A stretch of 64,000 bases of DNA from an uncultured Pseudomonadota bacterium (GTDB taxonomy: Bacteria > Babelota > Babeliae > Babelales > JAUPTZ01), in the NCBI GenBank assembly GCA_964429275.1, contig CAYSBJ010000001.1, positions 1 to 64,000 on the forward strand. Reading direction: 5' to 3'. Below the pieces are notes generated by a model. It saw only the letters and a program-made list of their open reading frames with translations. It was not told the DNA's origin and did no database searches. The position numbers were made by a program, and so were the translations under genes. Position 1 is the stretch's first letter. Every line of letters starts with the position of its first letter. This document shows, one piece after another, positions 1,950 through 55,637 of the stretch.

Positions 1950-2099
1950 AAAAGCTCCCATAAAAATTACTGCATAGGCTTTATTCTATACTATTTGGGC
2001 CAAAAAGAACAAGGGATTGGGCAGCACTGGCCTTACCAACGTGATAGTGTCACAACTCTACCAAAATAAAACAACAGGGAGGCCTAGCCCAGGCTCAAC

Positions 2100-9094: not shown

Positions 9095-9174
9095 ACCGAC
9101 CACCTTTTTTAAAATAAGAAGCAGCTAGCATGATAATCGAGACAAACGCAAGGGTGTCAATGAAACCGCAATTT

Positions 9175-12100
9175 TCATCGCTTACGAGAATGACCGGTTT
9201 TTTTGCGACGCCGCGAACCCCCTTTGACCTGAATAAGAGATGGCGACTGTACCAGATTACCTGTTGCGAAGTGAGACGTATTTTTTGGTAGCACAATATT
9301 ACCGGCATACGGTCCAGTTAGTTCAGCGGCAGAAGCAAAATTTGCCCCGTACCCCTGTATGCGCGCGTTGTTTGTCAAGATCAACTGGTCCGCGGGAACA
9401 TTTATTGATCCTGCGAGCGCACCATTTCCCAGTGCAAAAGCCACCGGCGTATCAAGAATCAGCCGTCGAGACGCATCAGCCATTAAGGTACCACCGAAGT
9501 CAACATAGACAACCCCTGATTGATCGGCGCCATTAACCGGCTGTGCTGGCGGTAAACCATTCGTTCCACGAGCGCTTACACACCAACTATCAGTAGCAAC
9601 TCGCAACGTACCGCCACCCGTTACCCCAGGATTAAACTTTCTACTCTCATCAAACGTCACTCCCGTTAACGGAATATTCCATGGAGAATACCCATCAGTA
9701 GACCCAAACGGTAATGGCCAACCAATATTTATTCGCGATTTATGCGCTAAATAGAGAACATGTGTTGCCTTATCTCGCGCTGAAACATCTTGCTCACGGA
9801 AATCGCTCAGCACCAACTCAATCGTCGACGGCATTAATGCCGTTGCTCCTGGCGTCAGTGCACTACGATACACATCAATAAAGGCATCGCGAAGCAAAGC
9901 CGACTGGGTACCGTTACTCATGCGATTTGCTGAAGAACCAAGCTGGAAGACCGCTCCTCGCCTATGCAACGCATCCAACGATCGACCTCGAGAATAGGCA
10001 AGCAATGAAGAACTATTATTGCCATTCGCGCTATCATTTTCACCACTATCTCCGTTGTTTTCATGAATACTCCATCGCACACCAGCACTTATCAGCGACT
10101 CTTGGCACGCAATAGTACTGTTGCACAACGAAATACTTGGTCCATATGACTCACCAAACAAAACTGCTCGCTCGCCACCAATAATAGTCGGCAATGCCGT
10201 CATCGTTACGCTTGGCGCTTGAACCACGCCAAGATTGCGAGAAACGTCACTGTGAATGTATGTCACGCGATCAAAATGTACAGGTGCATTAACCAAAATA
10301 GAAGATGCGTTATAGCGTCTATACGAAGCGCCAACGATGAGTGGTCGATTACCATACAGTGGATGTTCATACGCAGTAGGAAGATCATTTACAGCCCTAT
10401 TTTCTGCATCAGCAAGAAAAGTCTCTATCCCCGCAGCAATGCCCTGTAAAAATACCTGCTGTACGAGGGCTAATGGAGGGAAATTATGAGGCAAGATTCC
10501 ACGGTCTGTCACTTCGTACCACGCACCACTGGCAAAATCGTACCCCCAATCTTGGATACCGGTAGTCCACAATCCAGTTGCTGTATTATAAGACCAAGCA
10601 GTAGTTGTTGGGTTATATACCCAGGTATGGCCAGAACCGTGCTTATACCACTTGTTCGCACTATTCGCGGCACTGATCCAATAAGGCTCACTGCCATCGA
10701 AATAGTACCAACCATCAGCAAAGGTTCCCCCATCAGGCATCCAACGATTATGAGCAGAAGTATACTGCCAACGAGTATCACTAAAAGACCACGCCCATGC
10801 ACCAGTTGTGTTATTGTACGTTACTTGGTTCTTGCCAGAACTATCGTTCCAGTAATACGGCCAAGGATCCAATGGACTATAAGAAGCCGTCCCATTACCA
10901 AAAGTATCGACACCCTTCAGCACTTGTGTTGACGATGACCATGTTAAACTCGGCGAAGAAGAAAGCGCATGTGACACAATTAAAGCACGTCGTATTTGGT
11001 GAGCAATCATAAACTGTGGCACAAATCGTGGCGGTAAAACACCTTCTGGCAAACTCGACCACGAGTCACTTATAAGATCATATGACTCGCCTGAATAGGT
11101 ATCATTACTCGGATCATACGTAATAGTTACATCACCATTAGTCCACTGACGCATGCTATAAGAATACGTCCAGCTTTCTGTCTCATCCGCGTTGGTCCAG
11201 GTGATAGTTGCCGGATCGTACGTCCATTTTTCTGATTCATTCAGCAGGTTTTGCCAGATCTTAGTACTACTGTTGTAACTGTACGATATCGGATTAAATG
11301 GATTAAGTGAATGAGCCCAACTCCATGAACCATCTACTGCCGCAGTAAATGCAATTTTACCGTCAACCCATGATGGTTCAGCTGGTGGAACTAATGTTGC
11401 AATAGCAAGCCTATCGCCCAACGTATTATCATACACAATACGCATGCCTTCGCTCGTATTCGAGGCAAGCCACGTGCCATCATCTTGCCGCGCAAAGGTT
11501 AAGCCTGCAATAGACCCAAATGAAAGAAATCCTGACGCCAAAGCAGAATCAAAGCTTGTGCGAATTTTTGCTACCTGCCGAGCTACAGATGGTGGTTGGT
11601 AGCCAGAAAGCGCCGGTGGCGTACCCGCTACTAACACCCATGTTTGTGCATACTCATCAAAGCGCCAGACTGTTTTATAAGCATTACTTACCGCAACACT
11701 TCCCCATGTCAGCGTTAGCGGATCATACCGCCAACGAATTGCATTGGCAGGATCATACCAAACATTAATCGCTGGGTAATAAATCCAATGCGCACCGAGT
11801 ACTGCTGGGGTTGCAGGATTATATTTATACCAATTTTGCGTTGCAGTTCCGCCGTTGAGCAACTTCCATGAATCATACACCCCACTAACCATTGGGCCAG
11901 TTACTATGGAAGTACTTGGATTATAGGTCCACGTACGTGACGGTGAGCCCAGTGTGTGCGTCCATGTCCACGCGTTGGTGCTTGGTGTATACACCAAAGA
12001 AGCAGAAGAATCCCCGGCCACATAGGTCAACGTTGGTGTGCCTGCACTTGCAAAATTTGCCGTCACAGTACCGTCAGGTCCCGTTATGCCAAATAAATCG

Positions 12101-15100
12101 CCAGAAACAACCTCAAAGTCACGTTTTAATGCAATCGACGGAAGGAACGCAAAATTACTTGCTGTCACCCCAAGCGCATCCACCTGATTCATTACCAACC
12201 GGAGATACATTTGATGCACCAGTGCAACTGGTGGCCGCCCAGCATCACTAATACTACCTGTACCCGAAATTAACTTCCAAAACCTGCCCGCTACACAATA
12301 GCGCCACACGGTACCAGAATTAAATTCCTCCCATGTATCAGCAGTTGTACTATAATGCCATATATTTCCACTCGGACCATGCATCCACGTATCATCACTT
12401 GAATCATAGGTAAAAATTTGCGAATCATCTCCAACAAAGGTCCAGGTAGCCGCTACTGAATCGTATACCCAATCGGTATCGCTATCGCTCTTTTCTTCCC
12501 AAACTCCAGTGCCAAAATTATAGACTGCAGTATATGCGTTGTCAGTATCAACAAGATTTAGCCACTCCATTAAACCTGAATTTAGGTCAACCGTAAAGGC
12601 AACCTTGTTTTCTTCGCCAGTCCATTGAATCGTATTGGTTCTTGGTGCATACACAATCGACTGTATTGATGAGCCATTTGCGACTCTCCAAGAGCCATCG
12701 TCCTGTTGCGTAAACGGAGTAATCCACCCGTACGGCCCACTCGATTTCTCAAAGGCACCTGCTAACCGGAATGCATCAAACAATGTTCGTACAATCGCCT
12801 TTTGTATCACTACAAGCGGCGGAAATCCATCTGCTGGTGCGCCAGCGTAAGAAGTAATCTGTACCCAACCATCACCAAGTTGATAGTAATTATACTGCCA
12901 AACATTCGTACCATCATTATATGACCAGCGCCCGGTTGACGGACTATACGTCCACACATGTGAACTGGAGTTCTTTGTCCAACTTAAGGAATCACCTGCG
13001 CTATTATGCCAGGTCGAGCTGCCATCAGTCCAGCTACTCGTGGATGGGCTAAATGACCACGTAATACCTTTTTGACCATCAACCCACACAGAAGAATCTC
13101 CGTCATACGACCAGGTCTCTGGCCACAGTGGATCAACAGATCGCTGCCACGTAAAATTACCCGAAGCAACATCTACGGTGACCAGAATAGCACCTTCATT
13201 AAACGACCGTGGACCAACAAGACGGCCACTTATTTCTTGCGAACTCACCGTATACGTTGCTGTAAAATCAGCGGCTGTATTAGCAGCATGATAAACACCA
13301 GAAACTGGTTGGGTAACAACCCAGTTAGCAGTACCTGCTGATGCAAAAGCCCCATAGCCTAAGAATTTTTTGAGAATATAACGCGTATAGAGCTGCTGCA
13401 AAAGCGGCAATGGCGGCCTTGTTGACGGCAATATCGCGCCAAACGTAATTGGTTGCCATTGGTTATCAGTTGCCGCAAAATCATAAAACCAGTCAGCATT
13501 TCCTGTCTCGTCACGCCACAAACCGGTTTGCATATTCCAAGACCAGTGACCTGAACCACTTGACCAGACACCATTTGTTGAGTCATAACTCCACAATGCA
13601 CTACCACCTGTTATTTGCTGCCACGTTTGAGCATCAAGATTATACTCCCATAGCGTTCCATGAATTACATCAGTCCATCGACTCGTATCATTATTAAAAG
13701 TGTACGCATTTCCGTCACCCATAAAGCTATCCCACTCACAATGCCCCGTCGTCAGTTCGTAAGAAAATATTATGTCAGGAGAAGAGCCTATATGTGCAGC
13801 ATTATTTCGCCACTCAATAGTCGGTGCAGAAGAAGACGTTGATACAATAGCATAATCATTAAAGCGTCCGCCCCTCAATGTCCATGTGGAACCAGATACT
13901 GTTTTTGTACAAAGCGAACCTACCGCATTCCATATCGTATCCACTAACGCCTGTTGCACTACAACAAGTGGTGGCAAGCCACCAGCAGGAAGCCCATTGT
14001 AAGAAGTAATCTGCATCCAACCATCAGCAAGCATCTTATAAACCCAACGCCACGTAACTTCACCGTCATTATACGACCAATAGCCTGTTGTTGGGTCATA
14101 CGTCCACAGTGTACTGCTCCCATTATGAGACCACTGCAAGCCAGCAAGACTTGATTTCCATGAATCAGAATCACATGAGAAAGTTCCTGTAACTGGGTTA
14201 TAATCCCACTCTTCGCCTGTTTGATTATTGGTCCACACACGATCTACACCGTCATATTCCCACGTCTTCGTCCAGCGCGGATCAATCGAAGATTGCCAGC
14301 TAAAACTACCCGTATATGTATCATACGAGAGATCGATTGCACCGTTAGCAAGTGAGCTGTCTGAACGAGTACCTGTAACCACACCAGTCTGAGTATCATA
14401 CGTAGCAGTAAAATCACCTGCACCATTTGTTAGAGCATACGTAAGCGAAGATGGACCACTTACAATCCAATCACCACGACCACTTTCACCAAGTACTCCA
14501 TCCGCCCAGAACGCATTAAGCACTCGTGCCATATACACTTGCTGTATCAACGGTAACGGCGGCGTAAGTGATGGCAGAACAGCGCCATTGGTAAACGACT
14601 CCCAACCAGACCCTGCCGGAGAAAGATCGTAAATCCATCGCGCACTGTCAGCCACATTCATCCAAAGACCAGACGTTGCATTCCAAGCCCAATGAACGGT
14701 AGTCCCACCATTCACTCCGGTCCAATGATCGGCTGTCGAATCATACGTCCATACTTGCGAACCACCGGCAGTTTGCGTCCATCGCTTGAGCGCCACATCA
14801 TATGCCCATACATTACTTCCACCATCCGTCCATGTGCTACCACTAAATGTGTACGCAGGCGAACCACTACCGCTCAAATACCAGGAATTGCTCGCTGTCG
14901 TAAGGTTATAGGTAAATCTAACATCAGATGTGAGACCAGAGAAATTTTTGTTATTGTACCAGGCCAAACTGCCAGACGAATGGCCGCTCGCCAAAGTCAA
15001 TACAGCATAATCATTAAGATATCCTCCGTATGACCGCCATTCACTAGGGCCTGTCTGAACAACCGAAGGCAAAGCGCTTGCGGCACTAAAAAGTGTATCG

Positions 15101-30100: not shown

Positions 30101-33100
30101 AAAGAAACAGCAGGGATTGAGCTCAAAATTCTACCATTACTACGCCACGAAATAGCCGTCCGTGTTACATCGGTTGGAACAGTTAAGGTAGCGTGGTCGC
30201 TAAAATAACCCCCGTCCAGTGTCCATGTAGAACCACTTGTCGCCGTTACCAACGCAAGACCATTCAGCACTGTCCACAGGGAACTAGCAAAAGCATGCTG
30301 AACAACAACCAATGGCGGAAAGCCATGTGCTGGTTGCCCCGCAAAGGTTGAGGTCGCTTGCCACGTATCAGACAAAGCACAGTAACGCCACGTCCAAATA
30401 CCATGACCGCTATCGTATGACCAGCGACCAGTAGCAGGGTTGTATACCCACACAGCCGCATCGTTATTTTGAGACCAATGCAACCCTTCTGCAGTTGACT
30501 GCCACGTAGTCAGACCATCAGAGCTTGTCCACGTGTGACTATTTGCTGCGTAAAGCCATTGTTCACTCGTTTGACTGTTGGTCCACCTCGAAGAATTAGG
30601 GCTATATTGCCATAATTCTGACCAGCGAGGGTCGATTGTTCTTCTAAAGGCAAAAGCCCCTGTTTCAATATCATATGAGCTAAAAGAAACGGTGCCATTC
30701 ACATAACTGTAAGCACTCACCAAAGCACCAGTTGTCACCCCTGTACCAGCATTACATGAACCGGTAAAATCGCCGGTACTATTGCTTACCGGATACAGGC
30801 CGCTAGCAAGAGTCCCCACAATCCAATCTGTCTTGCCGCTCTCAACATACGCACCGCCAGACAAAATACCTTTCAATATGCGAGCACTATACATTTGCTG
30901 TATCAATGGCAATGGCGGTTTAACCGATGGTACTGCCGCACCAGCCAGGAGTGGTTGCCAAGCTCCTGAGGTTACCGTCAGATCATAAAGCCATTGCACA
31001 CCAGTAGATATATCAGTCCACAAGCCCTTTCTTGGGTCCCATAACCATCGATTACCACCATTTGAAACCCAATAACCGGTCGTAGTATTAAATGTCCATG
31101 TCGCAGTTGTACCAGTCTGCGCCCATTTTTTTTGCGTTGGGGTATAAGTCCAAGTACTGCTTGCACCAATATCAGTCCATAAACCAGTACTTTGTACATA
31201 GGTATACGCCAATGCCCCCGCGCTATACCAACTTGAATTGCCAGTGTTTACGATATACGTAAAATTAACTTCTGGCGTTACGCCTAAGTTATAGCCGTGG
31301 CTTCGCCACGCAATAGTACCAGTAGCACTCCCTGATGGCTGAGAAAAAGTGGCGTAATCATTGAAGTAACCACCAGCCAACCTCCACGCCGTAGGACCAG
31401 TTGATGTAACAACAAAAGCATTATCGATCGCACTCCACAATGAATCCAAGAACGCTCGTTGCACCACCATTAACGGCGGCAATCCTGTAGCCGGCATACC
31501 AGAATAAGAAGAAATTTGCTGCCAAGAATCAGCTAAAAAGCTGTACTGCCATACCCATGAGGAAGTTCCATCATTATACGCCCAATAACCCGTGCTTGGA
31601 TCATAACTCCAGGGCGTAGTACTCCCATTCTTTGACCACTGAAATGTCGTCGCGCTGCCCTGCCAAACCGTTGTTCCACCAACTAAAGCCCAGGCGCTCA
31701 TCGCTGGCTCATACTGCCATTGTTCATTCGTCTGCACATCAGTCCACAAGTGCGTACTACTATTGTATGACCAGCTGTTTGGCACTTGAGGATCGGTCGT
31801 ATTCATCCACGTATAGTTGCCCATCTGGCCAGTACTCGTAATTGCCATAAGCGAGAGAAGTTGAGCTTGCACCGTGCCGCTTTGCGGATTATACGTTGCC
31901 GTAATATCGTCAGCCGTATTCTTAAATGAAAGAAGACCGTTAGCAAAAACGGGGGAACTAAAAATCCAATTCGGTATCGCATTCGTATCAAAAGCGCCAC
32001 CAGCGACAAAGGCATTCAGAACTCGTGCTGCAAACTGTTGGTGCACCAACGGCAATGGCGGCACTACTGACGGCAATGTAGCGCCAAAAGTAACGGCCTT
32101 CCAAGGATTTGTGGTAGCGGTTAAGTCATACAACCATTCATTACCCGTTGAGACTTCTTTCCAAAGCGCTGTAGCTGGTTGCCACAACCAATCAGCAGAA
32201 CCAGAACCACCACTGTTATATACCCAATAACCGCTTGTTTTATTAAAACTCCATACCTGGCTCCCGCCACTCGTCTGTGTCCATACGTGTGTCGTCCTAT
32301 TATAAGTCCAGGTAGTTCCACGTACAATATCGGCCCAAACACCGTTGCTTGCTACGTATGTATACGCAACCGAGCCAGCAGTAGACCACGAAACGTTACC
32401 ACTAAGAAGCGGCGCAGAAAAACTAACTGCTGGTGTTGAACCCAAACTGCCACCATTATCTCGCCACGTTAAGGTAGTCGAGGCATTGTCAGAAGGAATG
32501 CTAAGACTTGCATAATCATTAAAGTAGCCACCAGTCACTTTCCAAGAAGTACCACTCACTTGCGTTACAACCGCCAACTCTCCTACCGCATTTTTAAGAG
32601 TATCAATCAATGCTTTTTGTATCACAACTAACGGCGGGAGACCACCAGAAGGCAAGCCAGGATGGCTACTTATCTGCGTCCAAGTGCCGGCTAATTCAAG
32701 GTATTGCCATACCCAGGCATGCACGCCGTCATCGTATGACCAACGACCAGTCGTCGGATCATAGGACCATACCGCGGCACCAGCATTTTGGGACCACCGC
32801 AGGCCCTGTAAACTTGACTGCCACGTCGTTAACCCGTCTGATGAGGTCCAGACACCAGACGCGGGAGTGTATCCCCACGTTGCACCTGTCTGCAAATCTG
32901 TCCAAGTACGAGTGCTAGAACTATATTGCCATCCCTTGGTAATTCGCGGATCAACAGTACAATTAAATACAAAATCGCCCTGCTCTATTTTGTATGAAAC
33001 AAGGGAGTAATCACCATGTATGAACGGATATGTACTTACCCTCGAACCAGAAATAACACCAGTTTCCGTATTATAAGTACCGGTGAAATCACCAGTGCTA

Positions 33101-35001
33101 TTGGTAATCGGATAACTACTTCCAGACGCAGACCCTACTGTCCAATCAGCCTTACCACTTCCCGCAAAAACACCTCCTGCGAGGAAAGCATTTAGAATGC
33201 GAGCACTATACATTTGTTGTACCAGTGGGAGCGGCGGCGTAGTAGCAGGAAGCGACGCTCCTGCTGAAAACGGAATCCACGGGCTACTTGTTAACGGTAG
33301 GTCGTACAACCATTGTGTCCCACTTGCCACATGTTTCCATAAACCAGTCTCTGCTTGCCATAACCATTTTACTTGGTCACTTGCACCAATATGAAAAACC
33401 CAGTACCCGGTCGCCGGATCAAATGTCCAGACCTGACTCCCCCCTGCCGTTTGTGTCCACACTTGCGTTGACGCATTGTACGTCCACGTATTTGTTCCAC
33501 CAACGTTAGTCCATGTACCGGAAGTAAAAGTATACGCCGGTGATCCACTACCAGATGCATACCAAGAGTTGTTACCGCTATTGAGAAGATAAGAAAAATG
33601 TACTGCCGGTGCCGCAGGAGCACTGCTACCATCACTGCGCCATGCAATAACAGTTGTCGTCGTATCCGTTGGAATAGTAAGCGTTGCGCTATCGTTAAAA
33701 AGCCCACCAGACAACGTCCACTGAGCAGCACCAGTTTTTTCTACCACACTTACTGAAGAAAGCTTATTCCACAAAGAATCAAGTATCGCTTTCTGAACTA
33801 CAAACAGAGGCGGCAAGCCAGCAGATGGCTGCCCACTATAGTTGGATATTTGCTGCCAGGATCCCGCAAACATAAGATAGCGCCACACCCAGGCACGATG
33901 CCCGTCATTACAAGACCAGTACCCAGTAGACGGTGTATAAGTCCAAACTGCAGCACCAGAATTTTGAGACCACGTAAGCGCAGTTACATTCGACTGCCAT
34001 GTCGTAAGCGTATCGCTACTCGTCCAGGTGTTTGCATGAAGATCGTACGACCACTGCTCACCAGTTTGCGCATCAATCCAAAAGCCAGTAGTACTGTCAT
34101 ATGCCCAGCTCTCTGACCACTGTGGATTAATCGAACGTGTCCAACTAAAATCACCGGATTGGATGTTATATGAGGCAAGATCTGCAGCACTGTTTGCCAC
34201 CGAATAGTAACTGTTAATAGTCCCCTGGACCACACCAGATACCGTGCTGTACGTTACCGCAAAATCATTAGTACTATTAAGTAGGCTATACAGACCTGCA
34301 GTCTGAGACTGAATTATCCAATCAGTTTTGCCACTTTCAACCAGAGCACCAAGCCCCAGCACAGCATTTAACGTTGACTGCGCATACATTTGCTGCAGAA
34401 TAGGCACTGCTGGTTTAACTGCAATGGTAACAGAACTTGGGTTATAAATAGCCGTCCACGTTTCAGTCGTAAAGTCATATGACCAAGTCGTCGACGATGG
34501 GATGTGCGTCCATTGAAAAGTAACTGGATTCCACTGCCACGCAGGATTACCAGTAATTCCTAGCGTACATACCCAGCAGCCAGTGCTACCGTTATATACC
34601 CATTTTTCTGGAGCTCCTACAGTCACCTGCCAAGTCTTGGTGCTCGGTGTATATACCCACGTACGACCACTCGTCTGATTCCACGTTTGTGTGCTGCCAG
34701 TAAACGAATACGTTCTACCAGTAGTAGTATTTCGCCATGCAATATCACCCGTTATAAGATTCCAGTTCGCGACAAAGATAGAGCTGGCTTGCGGCACCGT
34801 CGAATTGTCTCGCCATGACAAGGAAGCCGATGAACTGGTTGCGCTCAAAATAACCGAATCATTATACGGCCCACCAATAGCGCCCCACTCTACTATTTGC
34901 GAACCATTTGCGACTGTCCGTGATAATGTGTAAGGGGCAGCACTACACCCAACACTTACAAAGACGAGAACTAAACCTACCAGGCACTGCCGTATATTCA
35001 T
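9175..35001 (-). CDS. Giant exported Trp-rich tandem-repeat protein (8608 aa), putative surface filament/adhesin
   Basis: Uninterrupted 25.8-kb ORF with GGAG 7 nt before the ATG and an ATGA overlap with the upstream gene. N-terminal signal (possible lipobox VSVG-C19), 19 ~390-aa repeats, and a C-terminal B module shared with the 1171- and 1730-aa proteins. Confidence 0.9.
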   Translation of the reverse strand: MNIRQCLVGLVLVFVSVGCSAAPYTLSRTVANGSQIVEWGAIGGPYNDSVILSATSSSASLSWRDNSTVPQASSIFVANWNLITGDIAWRNTTTGRTYSFTGSTQTWNQTSGRTWVYTPSTKTWQVTVGAPEKWVYNGSTGCWVCTLGITGNPAWQWNPVTFQWTHIPSSTTWSYDFTTETWTAIYNPSSVTIAVKPAVPILQQMYAQSTLNAVLGLGALVESGKTDWIIQSQTAGLYSLLNSTNDFAVTYSTVSGVVQGTINSYYSVANSAADLASYNIQSGDFSWTRSINPQWSESWAYDSTTGFWIDAQTGEQWSYDLHANTWTSSDTLTTWQSNVTALTWSQNSGAAVWTYTPSTGYWSCNDGHRAWVWRYLMFAGSWQQISNYSGQPSAGLPPLFVVQKAILDSLWNKLSSVSVVEKTGAAQWTLSGGLFNDSATLTIPTDTTTTVIAWRSDGSSAPAAPAVHFSYLLNSGNNSWYASGSGSPAYTFTSGTWTNVGGTNTWTYNASTQVWTQTAGGSQVWTFDPATGYWVFHIGASDQVKWLWQAETGLWKHVASGTQWLYDLPLTSSPWIPFSAGASLPATTPPLPLVQQMYSARILNAFLAGGVFAGSGKADWTVGSASGSSYPITNSTGDFTGTYNTETGVISGSRVSTYPFIHGDYSLVSYKIEQGDFVFNCTVDPRITKGWQYSSSTRTWTDLQTGATWGYTPASGVWTSSDGLTTWQSSLQGLRWSQNAGAAVWSYDPTTGRWSYDDGVHAWVWQYLELAGTWTQISSHPGLPSGGLPPLVVIQKALIDTLKNAVGELAVVTQVSGTSWKVTGGYFNDYASLSIPSDNASTTLTWRDNGGSLGSTPAVSFSAPLLSGNVSWSTAGSVAYTYVASNGVWADIVRGTTWTYNRTTHVWTQTSGGSQVWSFNKTSGYWVYNSGGSGSADWLWQPATALWKEVSTGNEWLYDLTATTNPWKAVTFGATLPSVVPPLPLVHQQFAARVLNAFVAGGAFDTNAIPNWIFSSPVFANGLLSFKNTADDITATYNPQSGTVQAQLLSLMAITSTGQMGNYTWMNTTDPQVPNSWSYNSSTHLWTDVQTNEQWQYEPAMSAWALVGGTTVWQGSATTFQWSKNGSTTPWSYDPSTGYWAYNDGTSSWVWQYSFLADSWQQISSYSGMPATGLPPLMVVQRAFLDSLWSAIDNAFVVTSTGPTAWRLAGGYFNDYATFSQPSGSATGTIAWRSHGYNLGVTPEVNFTYIVNTGNSSWYSAGALAYTYVQSTGLWTDIGASSTWTYTPTQKKWAQTGTTATWTFNTTTGYWVSNGGNRWLWDPRKGLWTDISTGVQWLYDLTVTSGAWQPLLAGAAVPSVKPPLPLIQQMYSARILKGILSGGAYVESGKTDWIVGTLASGLYPVSNSTGDFTGSCNAGTGVTTGALVSAYSYVNGTVSFSSYDIETGAFAFRRTIDPRWSELWQYSPNSSRWTNSQTSEQWLYAANSHTWTSSDGLTTWQSTAEGLHWSQNNDAAVWVYNPATGRWSYDSGHGIWTWRYCALSDTWQATSTFAGQPAHGFPPLVVVQHAFASSLWTVLNGLALVTATSGSTWTLDGGYFSDHATLTVPTDVTRTAISWRSNGRILSSIPAVSFNYLLNTTDINWYSNGNASPSATYNGAVDSQSFGQWSDAAGANTWTYNDLERVWTQTSGGSQVWSFDDTTGYWVYDFDGTSPIQWLWDAEAATWTVVSDGSEWVYDFTNPSSPWVCLSASATLPAVTPPLPLTQLMYSSRVLNKFLAAGVFAESEHADWSVGAPVAGVYPVTNGTADFNLSYTTLDGVVTGGLVSTTYPFVDGAFSLVEYDIEHGDFTFVLSIDPRLPRTWQFASGPATWSDLQTGEQWTYDADLNIWVGPDGVTTWQSSLQGLQWSQNAGAAVWTYTPSNGHWSYNDGSRSWVWRFLALSSSWEQISSHAGLPAHGLPPLMVVHKALVDSLWCQLATTTTAQQLSSGNWTVTGGYFNDYASLIVPSDSQLATLTWRDRGNDLTSTPAISFSGTLRTGDISWYTVLSSDPSYRYVASTGLWTDVFSGVSWTYDDSAQTWTPAIGVAWTFDTATGHWVYDFEGDNAVSWSWDTATGLWEEVETGKHWLYDLTRYADSWTAVEAGASLPVITPPLPLVQQCYYTRVLKSFVTAGAFNTIGVSNWVFRSPSPASGVFSLQNRANDTVVTYTPTTTILTAQLLSFMNVTSTTQTGSFTWTLAVDPETPKSWSYSNSTHTWTDAQTSEAWVYTPSTKMWTLSGGSTTWQQNPTTNRWSRNGSAQVWMYAPTTNEWSYNDGTRLWVWQYDFLAESWRQISTNSGSPAGGVPPLMVVQRAYLDSLWNTVGGLCTTSKTSATKWTMTGGYFNDYATFTMPAVGGTASIAWRNKGNDLTKTPDINFSYVINTGDSIWYTLASRNPAYTYTANTGTWKNAAGTSVWTYNPSLKRWSLAGSTQTWTYTPSTGYWTSNDGVRWLWNQDTGLWQDITGNHQWIYDLTAASNPWVSLTAGVTVPAVTPPLPLIQQMYSARVLHAFLSGGVFAESGKADWVLGTVSGGAYPLANSTNDFSATYALTSGNIAGQRVSSYSFINGAYFLPLYDIEHGDFVFRRSIDLRWTESWQYSSTTGLWTSSQSNESWSYSKSTRTWTRVGGSTTWQSSLQGLQWSQNDGDALWTYAPSTGYWSYDSGHGIWQWQYLAFADTWKQISAFAGQPANGFPPLVVVQKAFLDSLWAALDETFVVAQTSDTVWKLTGGYYNDLATLTVPVDASTASLTWRDNGSHLSTTPAVRFVYTFLNGNDNWYTAAHNSTPAYTYVNSTGNWTDVVGGDTWTYAPLTQQWTHTHTDSHTWRYDAASGHWISDTSVHWLWHPTTAVWEHSASGALWVYDFTATSSPWHAVTFGAELPAMTPPLPLLQQMYRLRLINSFIAANVLDGRGSSDWALSSSVTSGTTFALHNGSDDFTATYNSGTGIINGQLWSALTITNDTGTGDFTWQLTLDPQATKQYSFDSNTERWTDAQTNQQWSYAPSTKAWTLVGGSTTWVSDVTGLIWSKNSGAAVWTYTPSSSQWSHNDGTHAWVWSFNLLTNTWEQVTSFAGAPASGMPPYVVIQKAYLNSLLNVFAHEAMVEQVSDYEWSLRGGYFNDSATLTVAMDDPSLATIEWRTDGNDAALVPALNYTYDVATGDNTWYRNGSSTAAYTYDAESGLWTDVAHSTLWEYDSLGLTWTPTAGEVWTFDATTGYWIYDLGGMDEVQWLWDAAHVCWVHIADSKRWTYDLTASSNPWQALSSGATLPSITPPLPLVQQMYSSFILNAFLKIGVFAESGKTNWTVGAVHSGAYPVANSTNDFIAAYTPSTGDVTGNRVSGSSFLNGAYSLTSYSVETGDFTFTCMVDPRFPQVWQYNSGPAMWADLQTTEAWSYDPATATWTDEGESVTWQSSLQGLQWSQNNGDAVWTYDPTTGRWSCNDGVHSWVYRYLLLANAWQQITAFSGAPAHGLPPLVVVQKAFVDTLWNALQAKNIVTQNSSSVWTLAGGAFNDHATFTIPSDTILTTIAWRNNGATLSDTPAVSFSYKVKTADSSWYIDGDSSPAYTYTASTHSWANDDDTDVWTYDIPSLTWTQTAGGSQEWSYNYVTGYWEEAAGKEWLWNAATGMWTDVASGKQWFYNLTASTDPWRAVSYGATLPLVTPPLPLIQQLYEQRVLSKFYSYGMFAESGKADWITPSPVVAATTIAVENSVNDFVASCNTTNGNIVGSLSSSDLFLDQAVSMTANTLSGSFSWTRSVNPLLPEMWSYNSTSHVWTDRQTNEQWTYAPSTLTWTNEDTWTSIPATMAWSQNAGVAIWTYNPWAGQWSYHDGTHAWVWSYSFVSDQWTQVSSNTGTPTHGLPPLVVVQKAVVDSLVNIFTDAPVMKQLTSSSWLAQGGYFNNYALLTLPSDGSLSTITWQTDGDNFVSTPAQRYSQGLSSGDIDWYTAAQNLTPAYTFVRSSGAWTDVVGSAAWTYNATAHTWTQTSGGSATWSYNSEDDYWTSAAGVHWRWQPTTGTWLNVADAKVWLYDFTVTSSQWKALSSSAILPGTTPPLPLVQQLYAKKVFNEFLNNGMLNAVGAADWIFNSPVVSTETFVVNNGNNDSTATYNPATGNITAQVFSVLSLTGNASTGAFTMKLAFDSQPISTWIYDISTHRWTNTQTSEYWTYSASTLTWTSSDSATTWTSNPITMNWTKNTDAAVWTFDPSTGQWSYNDGTRAWVWVYSFLTGTWRQISNYTGTPTQGLPPLVAVQKAFFDSLLNVFSNTSYITNPTAHGWVAHGGYFNDYAALTLPVDRRNASLTWRSNGNDLSSIASSSFSYTLRSGDTAWYTATSGLPAQTFNGATGLWTDYVGNATWTYNAAMQTWTQNSGGSEAWHFDTVTGYWTSSEDDQWLWDPAKGTWHDVARVADWLYDFTRLSSPWESLTVGASLPARRPPLALTQQLYRTRILNQFMALNLFDDCAVSDWIFNVPVVAATSLTVANSLGDFTATYTPDDNLITGNLLSFISISNNTETGAFTWKNTVNPQAYLSWAYDSSTHTWTNAQTAEAWVYSPVTNVWTLSGGSTTWQSDVDGFAWSKNAGAYIWTYDPLTGYWSHDDGTNTWQWLYEHMRNAWTQITTYTGTPAGGLPPLMVVQRALLNSLWSCVNDRCIVTQSSPTEWVAKGGYFNDRAVLTVPSGPTSPSIAWRDKGYNLSVAPNINFNYTLNTGNSAWYLAGSGSSAYTFTGSSNVWSNAAGTNVWVYSPTAKTWTQTVGGTTVWTFNSTTGHWVSGSQRWLWISDVSLWQDVASGNQWLYDFSAATNSWEALTDSAVLPVLTPPLPLVQQMFMMSVVNEFLSAGAFPSSGLADWAFTSPMLDDGVLTVTNSAGDFTASYTNETDVITAHSVSPYPFVNNALTITYHRSSGVFTWRQTVDARWPETWVYNSATRRWTNGQTGEYWIFDAVTNSWTSASDVVWTSNPVIRQWSNGSSSWYYAPDTGYWLYDDGVNVWQWQYSFLSGTWTQITSFEGGFSQVRPPLVVVQKAFLDSLCDAFNNVLSVSSVSSTECIGSGGYYNNYATLTIPDNKALSTIEWRNRGDDLDVDPDIAFTYHMGTGNMAWTLGASASSSYSFTESSGVWLDEITSDTWVYNPTAQSWTHSADSKTWTYDATNDYWTYESGGGDQVQWQWQKDRSLWVEVATGNQWLYDFGNLLSPWESLTSGEDVPTIVPALPLVQQLYSKHIVRQFLVAGAFDCTGKSDWILGEPPVTDHVFSLRNSVRDFTATYNMQTGLVSGAFQSPYSFVNGSVTVGSSSTTNDFVWQRSIDGETVAQWSYDGVWTDEQNGDQWAYDSNTRVWSNFYDSVTWSGDTAGLVWSRSSGDVSWTYDPATGYWAYQDADSAWLWHYHFFAGTWFPVTTADAIPVGGFPPLALVQKTMIDILQNTAIKKENRIVPGDADDEFVIRGGYFNDYALLTMPTDLSTATIAWRNKGNNLVADPDVNFTYALNTGNASWYDSSSGSPVYTFDNSTGEWVDVAGGTTWAYDATAQTWTQTSGGSQVWIFNPVTGYWTFDDGINGVVDWEWQPTRNLWQHVELHQEWLYDFTNPITPWRALFSGGTTPAIAPPLPLTQQLYAAGVYNAFLRWGAFDSLGKTDWILNAPVLSSGVISAHNSANDFTATYNPTTGVIQAELLFSTHIIYNTSNGAFTWNFAGYPEWPIQSSYDATSHIYTDGLLGNEWSYNPTTMVWTVVGGSETWQSDLLGYRWVKNGGEEVWIYDPTASSWSYNDGTRSWVWQYGPVSNTWNQISAYSIADFLTGFPPRVVLHKVILNSLYNAFTGDSVAVTETDSTHWVLRGGYFNDYATLAVASPSSNTAIAWRNKGYNLALTPDVSFTYTLASGNSSWYLGGSGSAAYTYVGSSGLWTDVPHSVTWTYDSSARTWTPTTGSVWTFDTATGYWTYDLGGSPVQWQWNASTGIWKHIASGGQWIYDFASSGGAWEPLTNGASIPSHAPPLPLVQQLYSARILNEFLTAGVFAQSELANWTVTGPVDGIYTITNGAGDFQAHYDTTMLTIAGMVSGASVSSYGFLSGKYGFTAYNIETGEFTFQRSVDTRFPEEWQYSAGAWTDLQTGAVWTYNATTQRWTAPDSTTWTVGVGGVQWLKNGGTVIWIYHPDTGHWTHNDGTHTWEWEYLWFAGAWKQITTFAGTPAAGLPPLVAVQQALLKSLLNVIGNLSDVSATSGTVWTLTGGYFNDNATLTVSGGGSVGTVAWRDNGGSLGSSPAINYSHTIGTGNNSWYLAGSGTPAYTYTGNTHTWTNADNTQTWVYDVALRKWTQTVGGSQVWTFNGSTGAWMPTSGSGWVWQPASGLWLSLADGVQRLYNFNASSPWQGWESATAPVSPTPPLPLIQQMFTAQILSKMLAFGMFREESTADWVFQAPIASSGLAQAGNKEGDFTVTYDISTGDIVGRNVHPDAFINNTVTLTANTNTRNFTWRSAVDSRWPLSWSYDNSTTTWTDSQTQETWLYDVERNIWTSGSDSSVYWSYDANTGDWYKGADVNPWLYDASSGHWTYYGSDHESVWQYSMINNAWNQISSYPSPSTGLPPLAVVHKTMADTLFSAASALPSVVQTGPSEWRSYGGYLNDYAVLTLASGHSSGSLAWYNNKNFSGLTSDVRFTYNLTTASNSWYLSGSGSPAYTFSGSTWTDGGSNVWAYDVALKRWTQTAGGSQVWTYDSTADHWTGVNGGTTVHWAWNATSGLWMNVADSARWIYDLSPAGSGWESFTNGAVLPSLTPPLPLIQQVYMARVLNAFWADGVLGESGRGDWIVSGPSSLTYALTNGAGDFTATYDTQTGVVTGTRSDSSLANGAIDLSYDTYTGSFSWQSSIDPRWTKTWEYDGVDRVWTNNQTGEEWDYNPVTGTFSCDSDSWKSSLAGLQWSHNGSSTLWTYDPTTGYWSYNDGEVTWRWVYKMLADGWMQITSYNGLPAGGLPPLVVVQQALVDTIWNAVGSLCTKTVSGSTWTLRGGRFNDYAIVSTSSSAPTIEWRNNAAHIGSSPDIIFSYELTTGHCEWDSFMGDGNAYTFNNDTSRWTDVIHGTLWEYNLDAQTWQQITGGSALWSYDSTNGVWSSGSGHWSWNMQTGLWRDETGNADWFYDFAATDNQWQPITFGAILPSTRPPLPLLQQLYTRYILKKFLGYGAFASAGTANWVVTQPVSGVYHAANTAADFTATYTVSSQEISGRLVGPRSFNEGAILVTVDVASGNFTWQRSVDPLWPETWSYDGDSSVWVDGQKGITWSFSPSTSSWTDGSSTWHNSAGDSLSWTKNSSSHVWTYSPSTGRWSYNDGTNVWQYNYYQLGDGWVQITSYAGAPADGFPPLVVIQKAIVRTLFDAFRLAGAFEKSSGPYGWITPFTQQDDGSWRVANGSSIQSIVYAPRTNTIQWTGEENKVAFTVDLNSGLMEWLNLVDTDNAYTAVYNFGTGVWEEKSDSDTDWVYDSVAATWTFVGDDSQIFTYDSSDDTWMHGPSGNIWHYSTTADTWEEFNSGTVWRYCVAGRFWKLISGTGSISDAGRPPVALVHQMYLRLVMNQVDALGVTASNFAFLPSIALKRDFEVVSGDLFGITGPDGTVTANFASAGTPTLTYVAGDSSASLVYTPSTNAWTWTHTLGSPSRTWTYNPSTSIVTGPMVSGVYDSWKLLNGGTATQNWYKYNPATPAVLGAHWIYYPAINVWYDPANAIRWRYDPLTLTWGSVAVSNAYKTVWRFDEYAQTWVLVAGTPPALSGYQPPSVARQVAKIRTSFDSALASGFLSFGSIAGLTFARQDDGTWLASNTSEGMRIVYDNTLGDRLAIATLVPPAEPSWVDGKIAFTAAVDGSWSWAHSLNPFNPISYSYNSSTKIWQNLLNESEKWTYDPATITWTNADETESWTYSYSMRQWTNGDVTITYDPSNDTYSGESYDLISDSWSSLPEGVLPPRFVPQFMIAHQIRRALIVSHALSSSPSLTWSSSTQVLKGVDTFGNGTASYSPLDPWPYYWNDSSGKNQVTYNNTTGAWAWSFSDTRWQYTSAHNRWMPDGGTFADGWYYFDGSEPYWISAANSANKWYKHGSGHTWVYNPTTTAWSYNTATGLWTTGIQDWGYDFASGAWYEVTDRGILPHNFPPLALVQQVFLQGIAAGIETFLADAENRAVNDLPTAYEHPLYGNRPLIVGASYRRYNASSILVNAPVHFDRVTYIHSDVSRNLGVVQAPSVTMTALPTIIGGERAVLFGESYGPSISLCNSTIACQESLISAGVRWSIHENNGDSGENDSANGNNSSSLLAYSRGRSLDALHRRGAVFQLGSSANRMSNGTQSALLRDAFIDVYRSALTPGATALMPSTIELVLSDFREQDVSARDKATHVLYLAHKSRINIGWPLPFGSTDGYSPWNIPLTGVTFDESRKFNPGVTGGGTLRVATDSWCVSARGTNGLPPAQPVNGADQSGVVYVDFGGTLMADASRRLILDTPVAFALGNGALAGSINVPADQLILTNNARIQGYGANFASAAELTGPYAGNIVLPKNTSHFATGNLVQSPSLIQVKGGSRRRKKTGHSRKR
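10430..34880 (-). repeat. Protein-level tandem repeat array: 19 units of ~384-400 aa plus 4 degenerate half-units
   Basis: A GG(Y)FND-type marker recurs near 34875, 33708, 32532, 31374, 30213, 29013, 27855, 26688, 25533, 24354, 23190, 22035, 20883, 19722, 18543, 17373, 16197, 15027 and 13872 (spacing 1152-1200 nt). Each unit also has one PPLPL(I/V)QQ-type and one PPL(V)VVQ(K/R)A-type motif. Confidence 0.9.
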
Positions 35002-42998: not shown

Positions 42999-43065
42999 TA
43001 TAAATCCTTCACACTAATAAGGTACTTTCTTGCCACTCTATAAAATTTCACACTCTCGCTCAAAG

Positions 43066-43098
43066 TTATAGGGCGTTTTGTTTAAAAACACCCTATAA
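43066..43098 (-). terminator. Stem-loop downstream of 43110..44111, probable intrinsic terminator
   Basis: TTATAGGGTGTTTT-TAAAC-AAAACGCCCTATAA on the minus strand: 14-bp stem with one G-U pair, 11 nt after the stop codon; the U-tail is short. Confidence 0.5.
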
Positions 43099-43109
43099 AA
43101 CCTATTCTA

Positions 43110-44111: not shown

Positions 44112-44313
44112 AATAGTTCCTTCGTATTAACACTGCACAGAGCCGGTAAAAAGACGGTACAGTCTAGCACTTTTAGAGAAAAAGGTGCCTCCGGGTATAC
44201 ACTAGATTAGTAGTTACTCAGTTTTTGCAAAAGCATCTTGAGGCACTTGCGTATTTTTATTTTCAAAAGCTATCAACATTGATCACATCGATGTGACACC
44301 AGCGTGCTCCACA

Positions 44314-44895
44314 TTATACTTTTTCTAAAAACTCCTCCGCCCTACGCATTTCTTCTTCCTGTTGGCGCATCTCTCTGGCAAGCGCATCGTCTGCCTCTTC
44401 GTTCGCATGTTCTTGATCAATAATTGGAAACTCCTGACCGTCTTCAGGCTGACCTGACGGAGTTTCGGCGTCGCTGCCAAGATTCAACTGTAAATCTGGC
44501 ACCAAAACTACAGTATTTTGATCTGGCGTCGCCTGCTTTGGCGCACGTTTATATGAAAGACCGCCAAAAGCAGCCAGACCTAGCGATGCGCCAACAAAGA
44601 TCAACCTGCTATTGTATAACTTGCTTACACGTTCAAGTTTTTCCTGTAATTCAACATTTTTTGGATGCTTCGCTGCTCTTTCGCGGAGCTTAACAACTCG
44701 GCGAGACAGTCGGTAGGCTTTGTACCCAAAAACGCCGGCAGCGGCAAGCCCGCTAAGAATAGCAATTGTAGGCATTGTATTGTTAATTTCTGGGCTCATG
44801 TTATTAGGTCGAGCAATAACACAGATATTGCCAAGTATGCAGACAGAGGCCGTAAGTAAAATTTTATAAAGAGATTTCATCACTACACCCTTCAT
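44314..44895 (-). CDS. Hypothetical membrane protein: signal, two TM segments, acidic tail (~190 aa; start may be a few codons downstream)
   Basis: ORF track; the loop between TM segments contains HPKNVELQ. Confidence 0.7.
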   Translation of the reverse strand: MKGVVMKSLYKILLTASVCILGNICVIARPNNMSPEINNTMPTIAILSGLAAAGVFGYKAYRLSRRVVKLRERAAKHPKNVELQEKLERVSKLYNSRLIFVGASLGLAAFGGLSYKRAPKQATPDQNTVVLVPDLQLNLGSDAETPSGQPEDGQEFPIIDQEHANEEADDALAREMRQQEEEMRRAEEFLEKV

Positions 44896-44913
44896 TCGTA
44901 CCTTTTTACGGTA

Positions 44914-49869: not shown

Positions 49870-49879
49870 ACATCACCTC

Positions 49880-55625: not shown

Positions 55626-55637
55626 GGGTACACTTCC

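What the first reader, a model, noticed from the sequence alone, without database searches (positions are those of the whole stretch)
10430..34880. Novel nested Trp-ladder repeat: ~9-aa hairpin period inside ~190-aa half-units inside ~390-aa units (19 units + 4 half-units)
Seen: three levels of periodicity. (1) Trp recurs every ~9-10 aa in a W-x-(Y/F)-(D/N)-x-x-T-x-x-W pattern. (2) Each ladder of ~10-12 Trp is capped by a PPL motif and an amphipathic helix, alternating PPLPL(I/V)QQ and PPL(V)VVQKA. (3) The pair repeats every 1152-1200 nt, marked by GGYFND. That gives about 42 half-units. Inference: an extended beta-meander/solenoid rod with aromatic surfaces that could bind glycans or membranes. 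It is loosely reminiscent of OCRE or choline-binding aromatic repeats but I cannot match it to a named family.
Basis: partly seen in the sequence, partly recalled or inferred. Interest (0 to 1): 0.85.

Follow-up and report, generated by a model that had tools for sequence, protein, structure and literature searches.

The report
Giant tryptophan-ladder repeat surface protein
A tiny parasitic bacterium spends about two percent of its genome on one 8,608-residue exported protein built from 42 copies of a previously undescribed tryptophan-studded beta-sheet domain, most likely a long surface fibre for contacting its host.

Summary
Window 9175-35001 (minus strand) is one intact 8,608-aa ORF (947 kDa). 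It has a signal peptide, 42 helix-capped ~190-200-aa half-units of two alternating, homologous types (19 units plus about 4 degenerate halves), and Trp exactly 9 residues apart in 247 of 552 gaps (21 expected by shuffling).

No Pfam, NCBIfam or PDB sequence family matches. AlphaFold2 models one unit confidently (pLDDT 84, pTM 0.80) as two helices and about 31-32 short strands. Its nearest structures are single-layer beta-sheets (CPAP G-box, OspA), all at background Z.

The family is rare: 14 hits at E<=1e-10 among 1.84 billion representatives, and one Dependentiae family among 261 genomes of the phylum.

The last 423 residues are the C-terminal half of a predicted right-handed beta-helix. The N-terminal half lies in the overlapping upstream gene; fused paralogues and a likely outer-membrane barrel complete the operon. 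At the syntenic locus, congeners carry 1,597-, 6,297- and 8,608-aa versions.

Best reading: a Sec-exported, length-variable, fast-evolving surface fibre or adhesin. That function is inferred. The repeat domain is new; the kind of protein is known. The scan had not noted this family before on other DNA.

The parts
9175..35001 (-). Giant ORF, 8,608 aa, 947 kDa, pI 4.62
34936..35001 (-). N-terminal Sec-type signal peptide (about the first 22 residues: basic n-region, hydrophobic core, GCSA-AP)
   Evidence: read from the translation; relatives also start with signal-like sequences
33814..34941 (-). First unit, N-terminally truncated (residues 21-396; profile positions 27-391, 317 bits)
12823..33813 (-). 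18 full ~384-400-aa units (residues 397-7393). Each is a type-1 half (PPLxVVQKA helix, GGYFND, Trp ladder) followed by a type-2 half (PPLPLxQQ helix, Trp ladder).
10447..12822 (-). About 4 degenerate half-units (residues 7394-8185) with caps at 7590, 7803, 7990 and 8175. This part is shared with the ~1,600-aa short family members.
9178..10446 (-). C-terminal domain 'CD' (residues 8186-8608), the C-terminal half of a predicted right-handed beta-helix module. It is 36% identical to residues 764-1125 of the 1,171-aa paralogue.
9178..9225 (-). Strongly basic C-terminal tail (GGSRRRKKTGHSRKR). Similar tails are seen in most of the relatives printed.
34998..37658 (-). Upstream gene o886 (886 aa). 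It has a signal peptide, one Trp-ladder-like stretch (residues ~47-190) and 'ND', the N-terminal half of the beta-helix module (residues 336-881). Its stop overlaps the giant's start by 4 nt.
37655..41170 (-). o1171, a fused ND-CD paralogue without Trp ladders, modelled as one long beta-helix. It overlaps o886 by 4 nt.
3902..9103 (-). o1733, a second fused ND-CD paralogue with an extra ~670-aa C-terminal extension.
2100..3872 (-). o590, a signal-bearing protein ending in Phe and a likely outer-membrane beta-barrel. This is a lead only.
   Evidence: sequence; Atlas 0.95 to a cluster where 21% of members carry Phenol_MetA_deg; conserved in G115 at 67% identity

Best explanation
The ORF encodes a Sec-exported, very long surface fibre (adhesin-like protein) of a small-genome Dependentiae/Babeliales bacterium, a phylum of protist parasites.

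Building block. The block is a ~190-200-aa domain: a Pro-Pro-Leu motif, an ~18-residue helix, and a ~16-strand antiparallel beta-meander. Each 9-residue strand-plus-turn step carries one Trp (W-x-Y-D/N-x-x-T-x-x). The Trp and Tyr therefore line up as a cross-strand aromatic ladder on one face, and Thr/Ser cover the other face. Two diverged versions of the domain alternate, and the pair (~390 aa) is the unit that was amplified to 19 copies.

Anchorage. The array ends in the C-terminal half of a right-handed beta-helix and a basic tail. The other half of that helix is made by the translationally coupled upstream gene. I infer that the two halves dock and tie the fibre to a cell-envelope complex, together with the fused beta-helix paralogues and the putative outer-membrane barrel of the same operon.

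Role. The array acts as a length-adjustable, fast-evolving spacer and/or binding surface towards the host.

Shown: gene, repeat hierarchy, homology of the halves, predicted secondary structure and fold class, operon, distribution, length variation.

Inferred: surface location, docking, adhesin role.
For: Repeats and gene:
- Intact ORF and repeat hierarchy.
- A signal peptide on this and the four neighbouring proteins, read from the translations.
- The genome is diderm, with 3 secretins, TolC and BamA and no VirB4.

Structure of the unit:
- Model pLDDT 84.1, pTM 0.80, two helices plus about 31-32 strands, 24/26 Trp in strands.
- Nearest structures are single-layer sheets: CPAP G-box Z 8.2 (76 aa, 3.4 A) and OspA 2af5 Z 7.0 (100 aa, 3.0 A).

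Beta-helix module:
- CD and ND are halves of one module. By blastp, o1171 residues 68-707 match o886 336-881 (E 7e-85) and o1171 764-1125 match the giant 8219-8557 (E 1e-47).
- The o1171 model (pLDDT 74, pTM 0.82) aligns to right-handed beta-helix proteins over residues ~20-1045. 47 of 278 chains reach Z>=8, best SRRP 5ny0 at Z 11.7. All 50 rows I read are, from their titles and my recall, beta-helix adhesins, lyases or tailspikes.

Operon and variation:
- 4-nt overlaps join o1171, o886 and the giant.
- The same gene order occurs in G115 and G117, where the Trp-ladder-CD gene is 6,297 and 1,597 aa.
- Between G000 and G115 the Trp-ladder parts are 42-49% identical. The beta-helix parts are 60-72% and Tmk/HolB are 71-76%.
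- Unit orthology is partly collinear, with lineage-specific expansion.
- The Trp-ladder module also appears in other architectures: P0031 fused W-ND-CD, and P0003 (7,212 aa) with the o1733-type extension.
Against: - No experimental or expression data. No RNA run holding the sequence was listed.
The rod shape, which face is exposed, and how the two halves pack are all unknown.
- All structural matches of the unit have Z at or below about 8, the tool's stated background.
- The beta-helix assignment is at fold level only: Foldseek gave no match at E<=0.001, and the Z values lie in a range that the tool says can be a common arrangement for repeats.
- No known secretion or anchoring domain was recognised in any operon protein.
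- The o590 barrel is a lead from an embedding search only.
- An aromatic face would normally be buried, which argues against the ladder itself being a binding surface.
Confidence: 0.5

Rival explanations
1. The protein is a released (not anchored) host- or polysaccharide-binding protein. The exposed Trp/Tyr ladders would act as an extended lectin- or CBM-like aromatic platform for glycans, cell walls or membranes of the protist host.
For: The protein has a signal peptide, and the genome has three secretins that could serve type II-like export. It is very rich in aromatic residues, which are regularly arrayed. The beta-helix fold of the attached module is shared with many polysaccharide lyases and tailspikes.
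Against: No carbohydrate-binding family was detected. The sheet is amphipathic (W/Y on one face, T/S on the other), so the aromatic face is more likely buried against the helix or the partner half. The unit's pTM of 0.80 points to a packed unit. No catalytic motif of lyases was identified.
Confidence: 0.2
2. The AlphaFold2 model is misleading and the ladders are arrays of very small (~36-aa) Kelch- or Tectonin-like propeller blades. On this reading the protein is a string of beta-propellers.
For: The 9-mer W-x-Y-D-P-x-T-x-x-W resembles the Kelch hairpin, a resemblance I recall rather than tested. 8 of 18 units give sub-threshold Kelch_1 hits, best E 0.0027. The weak tail of the database search contains 6 Tectonin-domain and 2 Kelch-only proteins. 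~16 strands per half-unit would equal 4 four-stranded blades.
Against: Kelch scores are below Pfam's cut-off (12.7 against 20.1 bits for unit 1). Foldseek rows that I take from their titles to be propellers have TMq <=0.17 with rmsd >19 A. I saw no propeller domain as the matched part among the 50 best rows of either VIA list. The model is confident: four of five models have pLDDT 81-84.
Confidence: 0.1
3. The protein is a structural coat or envelope scaffold (S-layer-like or periplasm-spanning) with no role in host recognition.
For: The protein is acidic (pI 4.62) with a basic tail that could bind envelope polyanions. It sits in an operon with a putative outer-membrane barrel.
Against: A four- to five-fold length difference between congeners at the same locus (1,597, 6,297 and 8,608 aa) and faster divergence of the repeats than of the rest fit an interface under diversifying pressure better than a fixed lattice.
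Confidence: 0.1
4. The ORF is not a functional gene: it is an assembly artefact or a decaying repeat expansion.
For: It comes from a metagenome-derived genome. There is no expression evidence.
Against: There are 25.8 kb without a stop. Units are old (34-54% identity) yet keep 30 invariant columns, 20 of them Trp. Contigs of a second sample are identical. Intact orthologues exist in two other species.
Confidence: 0.02

Closest known systems
CPAP/SAS-4 G-box (TCP10 C-terminal domain), a single-layer beta-sheet that binds the proline-rich motif of STIL/Ana2 (PDB 4bxp, 4bxr, 4by2)
   Same: It is the best structural neighbour of the unit model: Z 8.2 (76 aa, 3.4 A) and Z 6.5 (69 aa, 2.2 A). Both are long antiparallel meanders of short strands. 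From the PDB titles, G-box structures were solved with proline-rich peptides. Here every ladder is followed by a conserved PPL/PPLPL motif.
   Different: Z is at the tool's background level and only about a quarter of the unit aligns at low rmsd. There is no sequence relation and no Pfam hit. The G-box has no Trp ladder and no capping helix. The idea that PPLPL docks on the ladder is my inference and was not tested.
Borrelia OspA and its engineered extended single-layer beta-sheets (PDB 2af5, 2fkj, 3eex)
   Same: It was the top Foldseek hit (E 3e-5, prob 0.99). By VIA, Z is 7.0 with 100 residues at 3.0 A over model residues 21-129.
   Different: Global TM-score is <=0.18. OspA is a lipoprotein of ~270 aa, not a tandem array, and sequence identity is ~9%.
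Kelch motif / Tectonin beta-propeller hairpins
   Same: A local sequence motif, Y-D-P-x-T-x-x-W, is shared. It gives sub-threshold Kelch hits in 8 of 18 units and weak profile hits to Tectonin/Kelch proteins.
   Different: Scores are below the family cut-offs. The period is 9 aa per strand with no ~45-50-aa blade, and the model is not a propeller.
Rhs/teneurin YD-repeat shells
   Same: Both use repeated beta-hairpins with a Y-D turn. Local structural matches reach Z 4.4-6.0 (teneurin, Rhs core, Tse5).
   Different: No RHS_repeat Pfam hit even at E<=10. The hairpin period is 18 aa against ~20-21 aa (the latter recalled). No sign of a closed cocoon could be checked.
Giant repeat adhesins with beta-helix modules: Fap2 and other autotransporters, TPS adhesins such as EtpA/FHA, SRRP of Lactobacillus reuteri, and RTX adhesins
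   Same: All are very long exported proteins built from tandem beta-rich repeats plus a right-handed beta-helix. The attached ND-CD module aligns to SRRP (Z 11.7), Pet and Hbp passengers, and Fap2 (Z 7.8).
   Different: No autotransporter barrel, TPS domain, POTRA, RTX or Ig-like repeat was detected by Pfam in any operon protein. The beta-helix is split between two genes. The repeat domain itself is unrelated to those of known adhesins.

Membership tests
Kelch repeat / beta-propeller (Pfam PF01344 and clan) | Score at or above Pfam's gathering cut-off | tested here: not met
   8 of 18 units hit Kelch_1 only below the cut-off (unit 1: 12.7 against 20.1 bits; best E 0.0027). The two ~4,300-aa halves of the ORF gave no family at E<=0.01.
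Kelch repeat / beta-propeller (Pfam PF01344 and clan) | Four-stranded blades closing into a propeller | tested here: inconclusive
   Rows I take to be propellers appear in Foldseek only with TMq <=0.17 and rmsd >19 A. I saw none as the matched part in the 50 best rows of either VIA list. This rests on a predicted model.
Rhs / YD repeat (PF05593) | Match to the RHS_repeat profile | tested here: not met
   No hit at E<=10 in any of 18 units or at E<=0.01 in the whole ORF.
Rhs / YD repeat (PF05593) | Hairpin strip like the YD shell | tested here: inconclusive
   Local matches to teneurin and Rhs cores at Z 4.4-6.0 over 62-119 residues.
Choline-binding / cell-wall-binding repeat (PF01473) | Match to the CW_binding_1 profile | tested here: not met
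   No hit at E<=10 in 18 units. The PF number and name are recalled.
OCRE domain (PF17780) | Match to the OCRE profile | tested here: not met
   No hit at E<=10 in 18 units. The PF number is recalled.
CPAP G-box / OspA-type single-layer beta-sheet (structural class) | Long antiparallel meander that superposes on a solved single-layer sheet | tested here: inconclusive
   Best Z 8.2 (76 aa) and 7.0 (100 aa, 3.0 A). These are the top of both lists but lie at the tool's background level.
Type V secretion (autotransporter / two-partner) | C-terminal autotransporter barrel, or a TPS domain plus a POTRA-bearing TpsB partner | tested here: not met
   Pfam and NCBIfam found no family in the giant, o886, o1171, o1733 or o590 at E<=0.01.
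Type V secretion (autotransporter / two-partner) | Right-handed beta-helix passenger | tested here: met
   The o1171 model aligns to Pet, Hbp and Fap2 passengers and many other beta-helices: 47 of 278 chains at Z>=8. This is at fold level, on a predicted model.
Type I-secreted RTX adhesins | No N-terminal signal peptide; C-terminal RTX nonapeptide repeats | tested here: not met
   An N-terminal signal-like sequence is present. No HemolysinCabind hit.
The new family itself (Trp-ladder half-unit + CD) | Profile match to the 391-position unit and presence of the C-terminal CD | tested here: met
   22 profile matches in the ORF. CD is found in 11 of 37 database representatives. Orthologues lie at syntenic loci in G115 and G117.

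The most novel reading that the evidence does not exclude
The array is a natural 'tryptophan-zipper' ribbon. It would be made of hundreds of 9-residue strand-turn steps, roughly 670 strands. If laid end to end as single-layer sheets at ~0.48 nm per strand, they would span about 0.3 micrometre. The ribbon would be stabilised by a continuous cross-strand Trp ladder and locked domain to domain by the PPL/PPLPL motifs docking on the neighbouring aromatic face, as proline-rich peptides do on the CPAP G-box. That would be a new fold class and a new way to build a length-tunable host-contact fibre, anchored by a beta-helix split across two polypeptides.
Probability: 0.2. Interest if true: 0.8.

Novelty: new variant of a known kind. 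Interest (0 to 1): 0.6.

Why it matters
Dependentiae are widespread, almost uncultured parasites of protists, and how they attach to or enter hosts is unknown. This locus takes 2.1% of a 1.21-Mb genome (25,827 of 1,207,998 bases). It is conserved in gene order but varies four- to five-fold in length between congeners, and its repeats evolve faster than the rest. These are the hallmarks of a host-interface molecule, so it gives a concrete candidate to test.

For protein science, the domain has no family or solved relative. It is nevertheless predicted confidently from only 18 paralogous copies. It offers a natural, highly regular Trp-per-strand beta-meander, of interest for understanding and designing single-layer or ladder-stabilised sheets. 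The beta-helix split between two coupled genes is also unusual.

Tried and rejected
Family and sequence searches:
- Pfam and NCBIfam on the ORF and neighbours gave nothing, apart from one 16.6-bit TIGR04076 hit below its cut-off.
- The PDB sequence search with the unit profile gave only chance hits to a terpene synthase, E 0.085. With o1171 it gave none.
- Tandem Repeats Finder found no DNA tandem repeat; the units exceed its period limit and are diverged.
- The promoter and terminator scans were not above shuffles.

Embedding and structure searches:
- The Atlas search for o1171 gave only a weak 0.77 lead to DUF1565.
- Foldseek on the o1171 model found no match at E<=0.001.

The docking claim is therefore untested.

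A single-protein scan found no relative. A 3-row alignment found 3 loci, titled Candidatus Dependentiae, Candidatus Babeliales and 'bacterium'.

Sequencing runs: no RNA holder was listed.

Literature:
- The Chromulinavorax destructans paper (PMC6561590) was read only as passages found by term search. It has 0 occurrences of 'tryptophan' and no giant repeat protein in the 12 of 13 passages shown. My recollection of a large host-interaction gene region in that paper was not borne out.
- Searches for giant genes with Dependentiae, for Trp-ladder or single-layer-sheet terms, and for Dependentiae with adhesin or beta-helix returned listings with nothing on this family. Only listings and abstract starts were seen.

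Other:
- The amphipathic-helix test was negative.
- Earlier notes of this scan hold no look-alike by sequence.
Full report
**What is there**

The window's minus strand carries one uninterrupted ORF, 9175..35001, of 8,608 aa. It is 947 kDa with pI 4.62. At 25,827 of 1,207,998 bases, it takes 2.1% of an eight-contig genome that is 98% complete.

The protein starts with a signal-peptide-like sequence, read. Thr, Ser, Ala and Gly are the most abundant residues and Trp makes up 6.4%.

**Checking the three periodicities**

- *Trp spacing.* 247 of 552 successive Trp-Trp gaps are exactly 9 residues. In 1,000 shuffles the mean was 21.0 +/- 4.6 and the maximum 36.
- *Helix caps.* There are 42 Pro-rich helix caps, 185-213 aa apart. 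40 contain PP and two are variants. Through the regular units they alternate PPLxVVQKA and PPLPLxQQ; the last few caps, from residue 7394 on, depart from these motifs.
- *Units.* 18 GGYFND-like sites lie 384-400 aa apart. A profile of 18 aligned units (A1, mean column identity 54%, 30 invariant columns of which 20 are Trp) finds one N-terminally truncated and 18 full units. Weaker matches follow over residues 7394-8199, which hold four more caps.
- *Homology of the halves.* The two half-unit types align over their whole length: hhalign 99.1%, E 1.7e-18, 188 columns, 22% identity. The basic domain is therefore the ~190-200-aa half-unit.
- *A further level.* Autocorrelation peaks at 1173 and 773 aa exceed that at 392, and units 1/4, 2/5 and 3/6 are the closest pairs at 51-54%. 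This points to a three-unit block duplication.

Units are 34-54% identical to one another. The DNA repeat copies listed are 60-79% identical to their reference copies. The array is therefore old, not a recent or assembly-made duplication. Contigs of a second sample from the same study cover all 30 bins of a 20-kb stretch at >=99% without any difference or indel.

The cap helices have no higher hydrophobic moment than shuffles, 0.217 against 0.209.

**Known families**

- Pfam and NCBIfam find nothing significant in the ORF.
- Scanned singly at E<=10, the 18 units give only sub-threshold Kelch-motif hits (8 of 18, best E 0.0027). There are no RHS_repeat, CW_binding_1 or OCRE hits.
- The unit profile finds no PDB sequence.

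**Structure of a unit**

AlphaFold2 used only the 18 paralogous units as its alignment. The model has pLDDT 84.1 and pTM 0.80, and four of five models reach pLDDT 81-84. It shows helices at residues 3-18 and 195-212. Strands number 32 as elements, or 31 as runs of three or more.

In the model, 24 of 26 Trp lie in strands and 22 of 31 strands carry one. With one Trp per 9-residue strand-turn step in an antiparallel meander, the Trp (and the Tyr two positions on) should fall in a line across the sheet on one face. Thr/Ser would cover the other face.

- Foldseek against the PDB gives no global match (TMq <=0.17). Its top rows are engineered OspA single-layer sheets, Rhs/teneurin YD shells, and entries that I take from their titles to be propellers.
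- An exhaustive VIA search has its best hit in the CPAP G-box single-layer sheet (Z 8.2, 76 aa, 3.4 A). Sheet-plus-helix folds (polo box, p32) and porins follow at Z 5-7.
- The second look gives OspA 2af5 Z 7.0 (100 aa, 3.0 A) and teneurin Z 5-6.

In both VIA lists I saw no propeller domain as the matched part among the 50 rows shown. All Z values are at the tool's stated background. I therefore claim only the class (open antiparallel meander plus helix), not homology.

**Distribution**

- The unit profile, searched against 1.84 billion representative proteins, gives 37 hits at E<=0.001, 14 at <=1e-10 and 9 at <=1e-30.
- I scanned 35 of the 37 with Pfam; the two longer than 5,000 aa were left out. 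The 12 strongest of those scanned have no Pfam family. The weak tail includes 6 Tectonin-domain proteins, 5 DUF3078 proteins, 2 proteins with Kelch hits but no Tectonin, and others. These share only the hairpin motif.
- Among 261 genomes of the phylum, 6 match including the window's own. All 6 lie in one family (5/5 besides G000) and 0 of 255 match elsewhere. Strong matches occur only in G115 and G117 of the same genus. G113, G114 and G116 match weakly and are 64-84% complete.
- In the own genome, all 21 matches lie inside this ORF.
- Record titles and one source name place relatives in Candidatus Dependentiae/Babeliales. This agrees with earlier notes of this scan on the same genome.

**Family architecture**

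Eleven of the 37 representatives end in the same ~420-aa C-terminal domain, 'CD'. Most of the members printed end in a basic tail.

The ~1,600-1,800-aa members consist of one good unit, about four degenerate half-units, and CD. The giants are therefore internal amplifications of the unit: 18 extra units here and 12 in the 6,297-aa G115 protein.

Unit-by-unit comparison of the two giants is partly collinear (A0-B0, A11-14 with B5-8, A18-B12; 41-49% identity). Units A1-A10 mostly resemble B2/B3, which indicates lineage-specific expansion.

**The C-terminal domain and the operon**

By blastp, the 1,171-aa gene two positions upstream contains both 'ND' and CD. Its residues 68-707 match o886 336-881 (E 7e-85). 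Its residues 764-1125 match the giant's 8219-8557 at 36% identity (E 1e-47). The 1,733-aa downstream gene is a second fused ND-CD copy with an extra C-terminal extension.

o886 lies directly upstream and its stop overlaps the giant's start by 4 nt. It has a signal peptide, a short Trp-ladder-like stretch (E 1.6e-5 to the giant) and ND only. The module is thus split: ND on o886 and CD on the giant.

o1171 has 19 relatives among 5.8 billion clusters, none with a Pfam domain. Its AlphaFold2 model has pLDDT 74.3 and pTM 0.82. It gets no Foldseek match at E<=0.001. On a second look, 47 of 278 chains reach Z>=8. All 50 rows I read are, from their titles and my recall, right-handed beta-helix proteins. 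The best are SRRP 5ny0 (Z 11.7, 312 aa) and an alginate lyase (Z 11.6). The list also holds tailspikes, the Pet and Hbp passengers, and Fap2. Aligned ranges run from residue ~20 to 800-1045, so ND and CD are two halves of one helix.

The last gene of the run, o590, carries a signal peptide and ends in Phe. An embedding search gives a lead to an outer-membrane barrel family (0.95; 21% of cluster members carry it).

The same order is found in G115: barrel-like gene, fused paralogue, Trp-ladder-CD gene, ND gene, fused paralogue. There the lengths are 605 aa, ~1,720 aa, 6,297 aa, 886 aa and 1,181 aa. It is also found in G117, with a partial paralogue, then 1,597 aa, 612 aa and 1,163 aa. The 4-nt overlaps recur in both.

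Four further pairs of a Trp-ladder-CD protein and an o1171 relative have identical longest-contig lengths: 270,693; 932,250; 43,687; 30,596. This suggests, but does not prove, that they lie on the same contigs.

The genome encodes three secretins, TolC and BamA, but no VirB4.

**Rates**

| Compared between G000 and G115 | Identity |
|---|---|
| Tmk | 76% |
| HolB | 71% |
| o590 | 67% |
| o1733 | 64% |
| o1171 | 63% |
| o886 ND | 72% |
| CD | 60% |
| Three Trp-ladder parts | 42-49% |

**Other architectures**

P0031 (2,240 aa) carries the o886-like part (Trp ladder plus ND) and CD in one chain. P0003 (7,212 aa; 197 of 505 Trp gaps equal 9) joins ladders to a homologue of the o1733 extension. The Trp-ladder domain is thus a shuffled module of this lineage's exported beta-helix proteins.

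**Interpretation**

I read the protein as a Sec-exported surface fibre, with confidence about 0.5. The Trp-ladder array would be a length-variable, fast-evolving spacer or contact surface. It would be tied to the envelope through its half beta-helix docking on the ND half from o886, and through its basic tail.

Rivals:
- a released glycan- or membrane-binding protein (0.2);
- a string of miniature propellers, if the model is wrong (0.1);
- a coat or scaffold (0.1);
- a non-functional ORF (0.02).

The docking test could not be run.

**Novelty**

Giant repeat adhesins with beta-helix parts are a known kind. The repeat domain, its strict one-Trp-per-9-residue meander, the A/B nested hierarchy and the two-gene split of the beta-helix are not described in the families or papers I could search. 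The searches cover open-access text only, and I saw listings and passages, not whole papers.

Noticed in passing
window 41274-45828 (-): Four ORFs (574, 333, 193 and 304 aa) have no Pfam hit. In the three whose translations I read (574, 333 and 304 aa) I saw, by eye, an N-terminal signal-like segment, a hydrophobic hairpin, and long charged coiled-coil-like regions. They resemble the orphan hairpin-anchored exported proteins noted earlier in this genome and chlamydial Inc proteins.
   Followed up: no
window 48220-60056 (-): Six consecutive large ORFs (549, 500, 903, 530, 597 and 803 aa) have no Pfam family at E<=0.001. This is another block of orphan genes next to tmk-holB.
   Followed up: no
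window 3-1961 (-): An open-ended 653-aa ORF, rich in Ser/Ala/Val/Pro, has an N-terminal hydrophobic hairpin and no Pfam hit. It directly follows the barrel-like o590.
   Followed up: no
window 9133-9160 (-): A promoter-like site (TTGACA, 16 nt, GATTAT; 10 of 12) lies in the 71-nt gap between the giant's stop and the start of o1733. Site counts in the region are not above shuffles.
   Followed up: partly
G000:C1:75375-75869, 134079-134546, 139168-139641: Three secretin genes lie within ~80 kb beyond the window's end in a 1.2-Mb genome. They are possible export routes for the many signal-bearing orphan proteins.
   Followed up: no
P0003 (7,212 aa, metagenome protein): A second giant carries Trp-ladder arrays. 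It is followed by a long Ala/Glu/Gln/Thr-rich, helix-like stretch and a homologue of the o1733 C-terminal extension instead of CD.
   Followed up: partly
L026 (G114:C123:2913-8288), L028 (G116:C1:1726-7209), L027 (G113:C5:818-4630): Open frames of 1,792, 1,828 and 1,271 aa in related genomes carry only a weak Trp-ladder stretch. The first two also carry the o1733-type extension.
   Followed up: partly
giant residue ~8300 (CD): The motif C-H-E-S, which is conserved or nearly so in the aligned relatives, reads C-Q-E-S in this giant and in the 3-row consensus with G115. If Cys-His were catalytic, this copy would lack the His.
   Followed up: no
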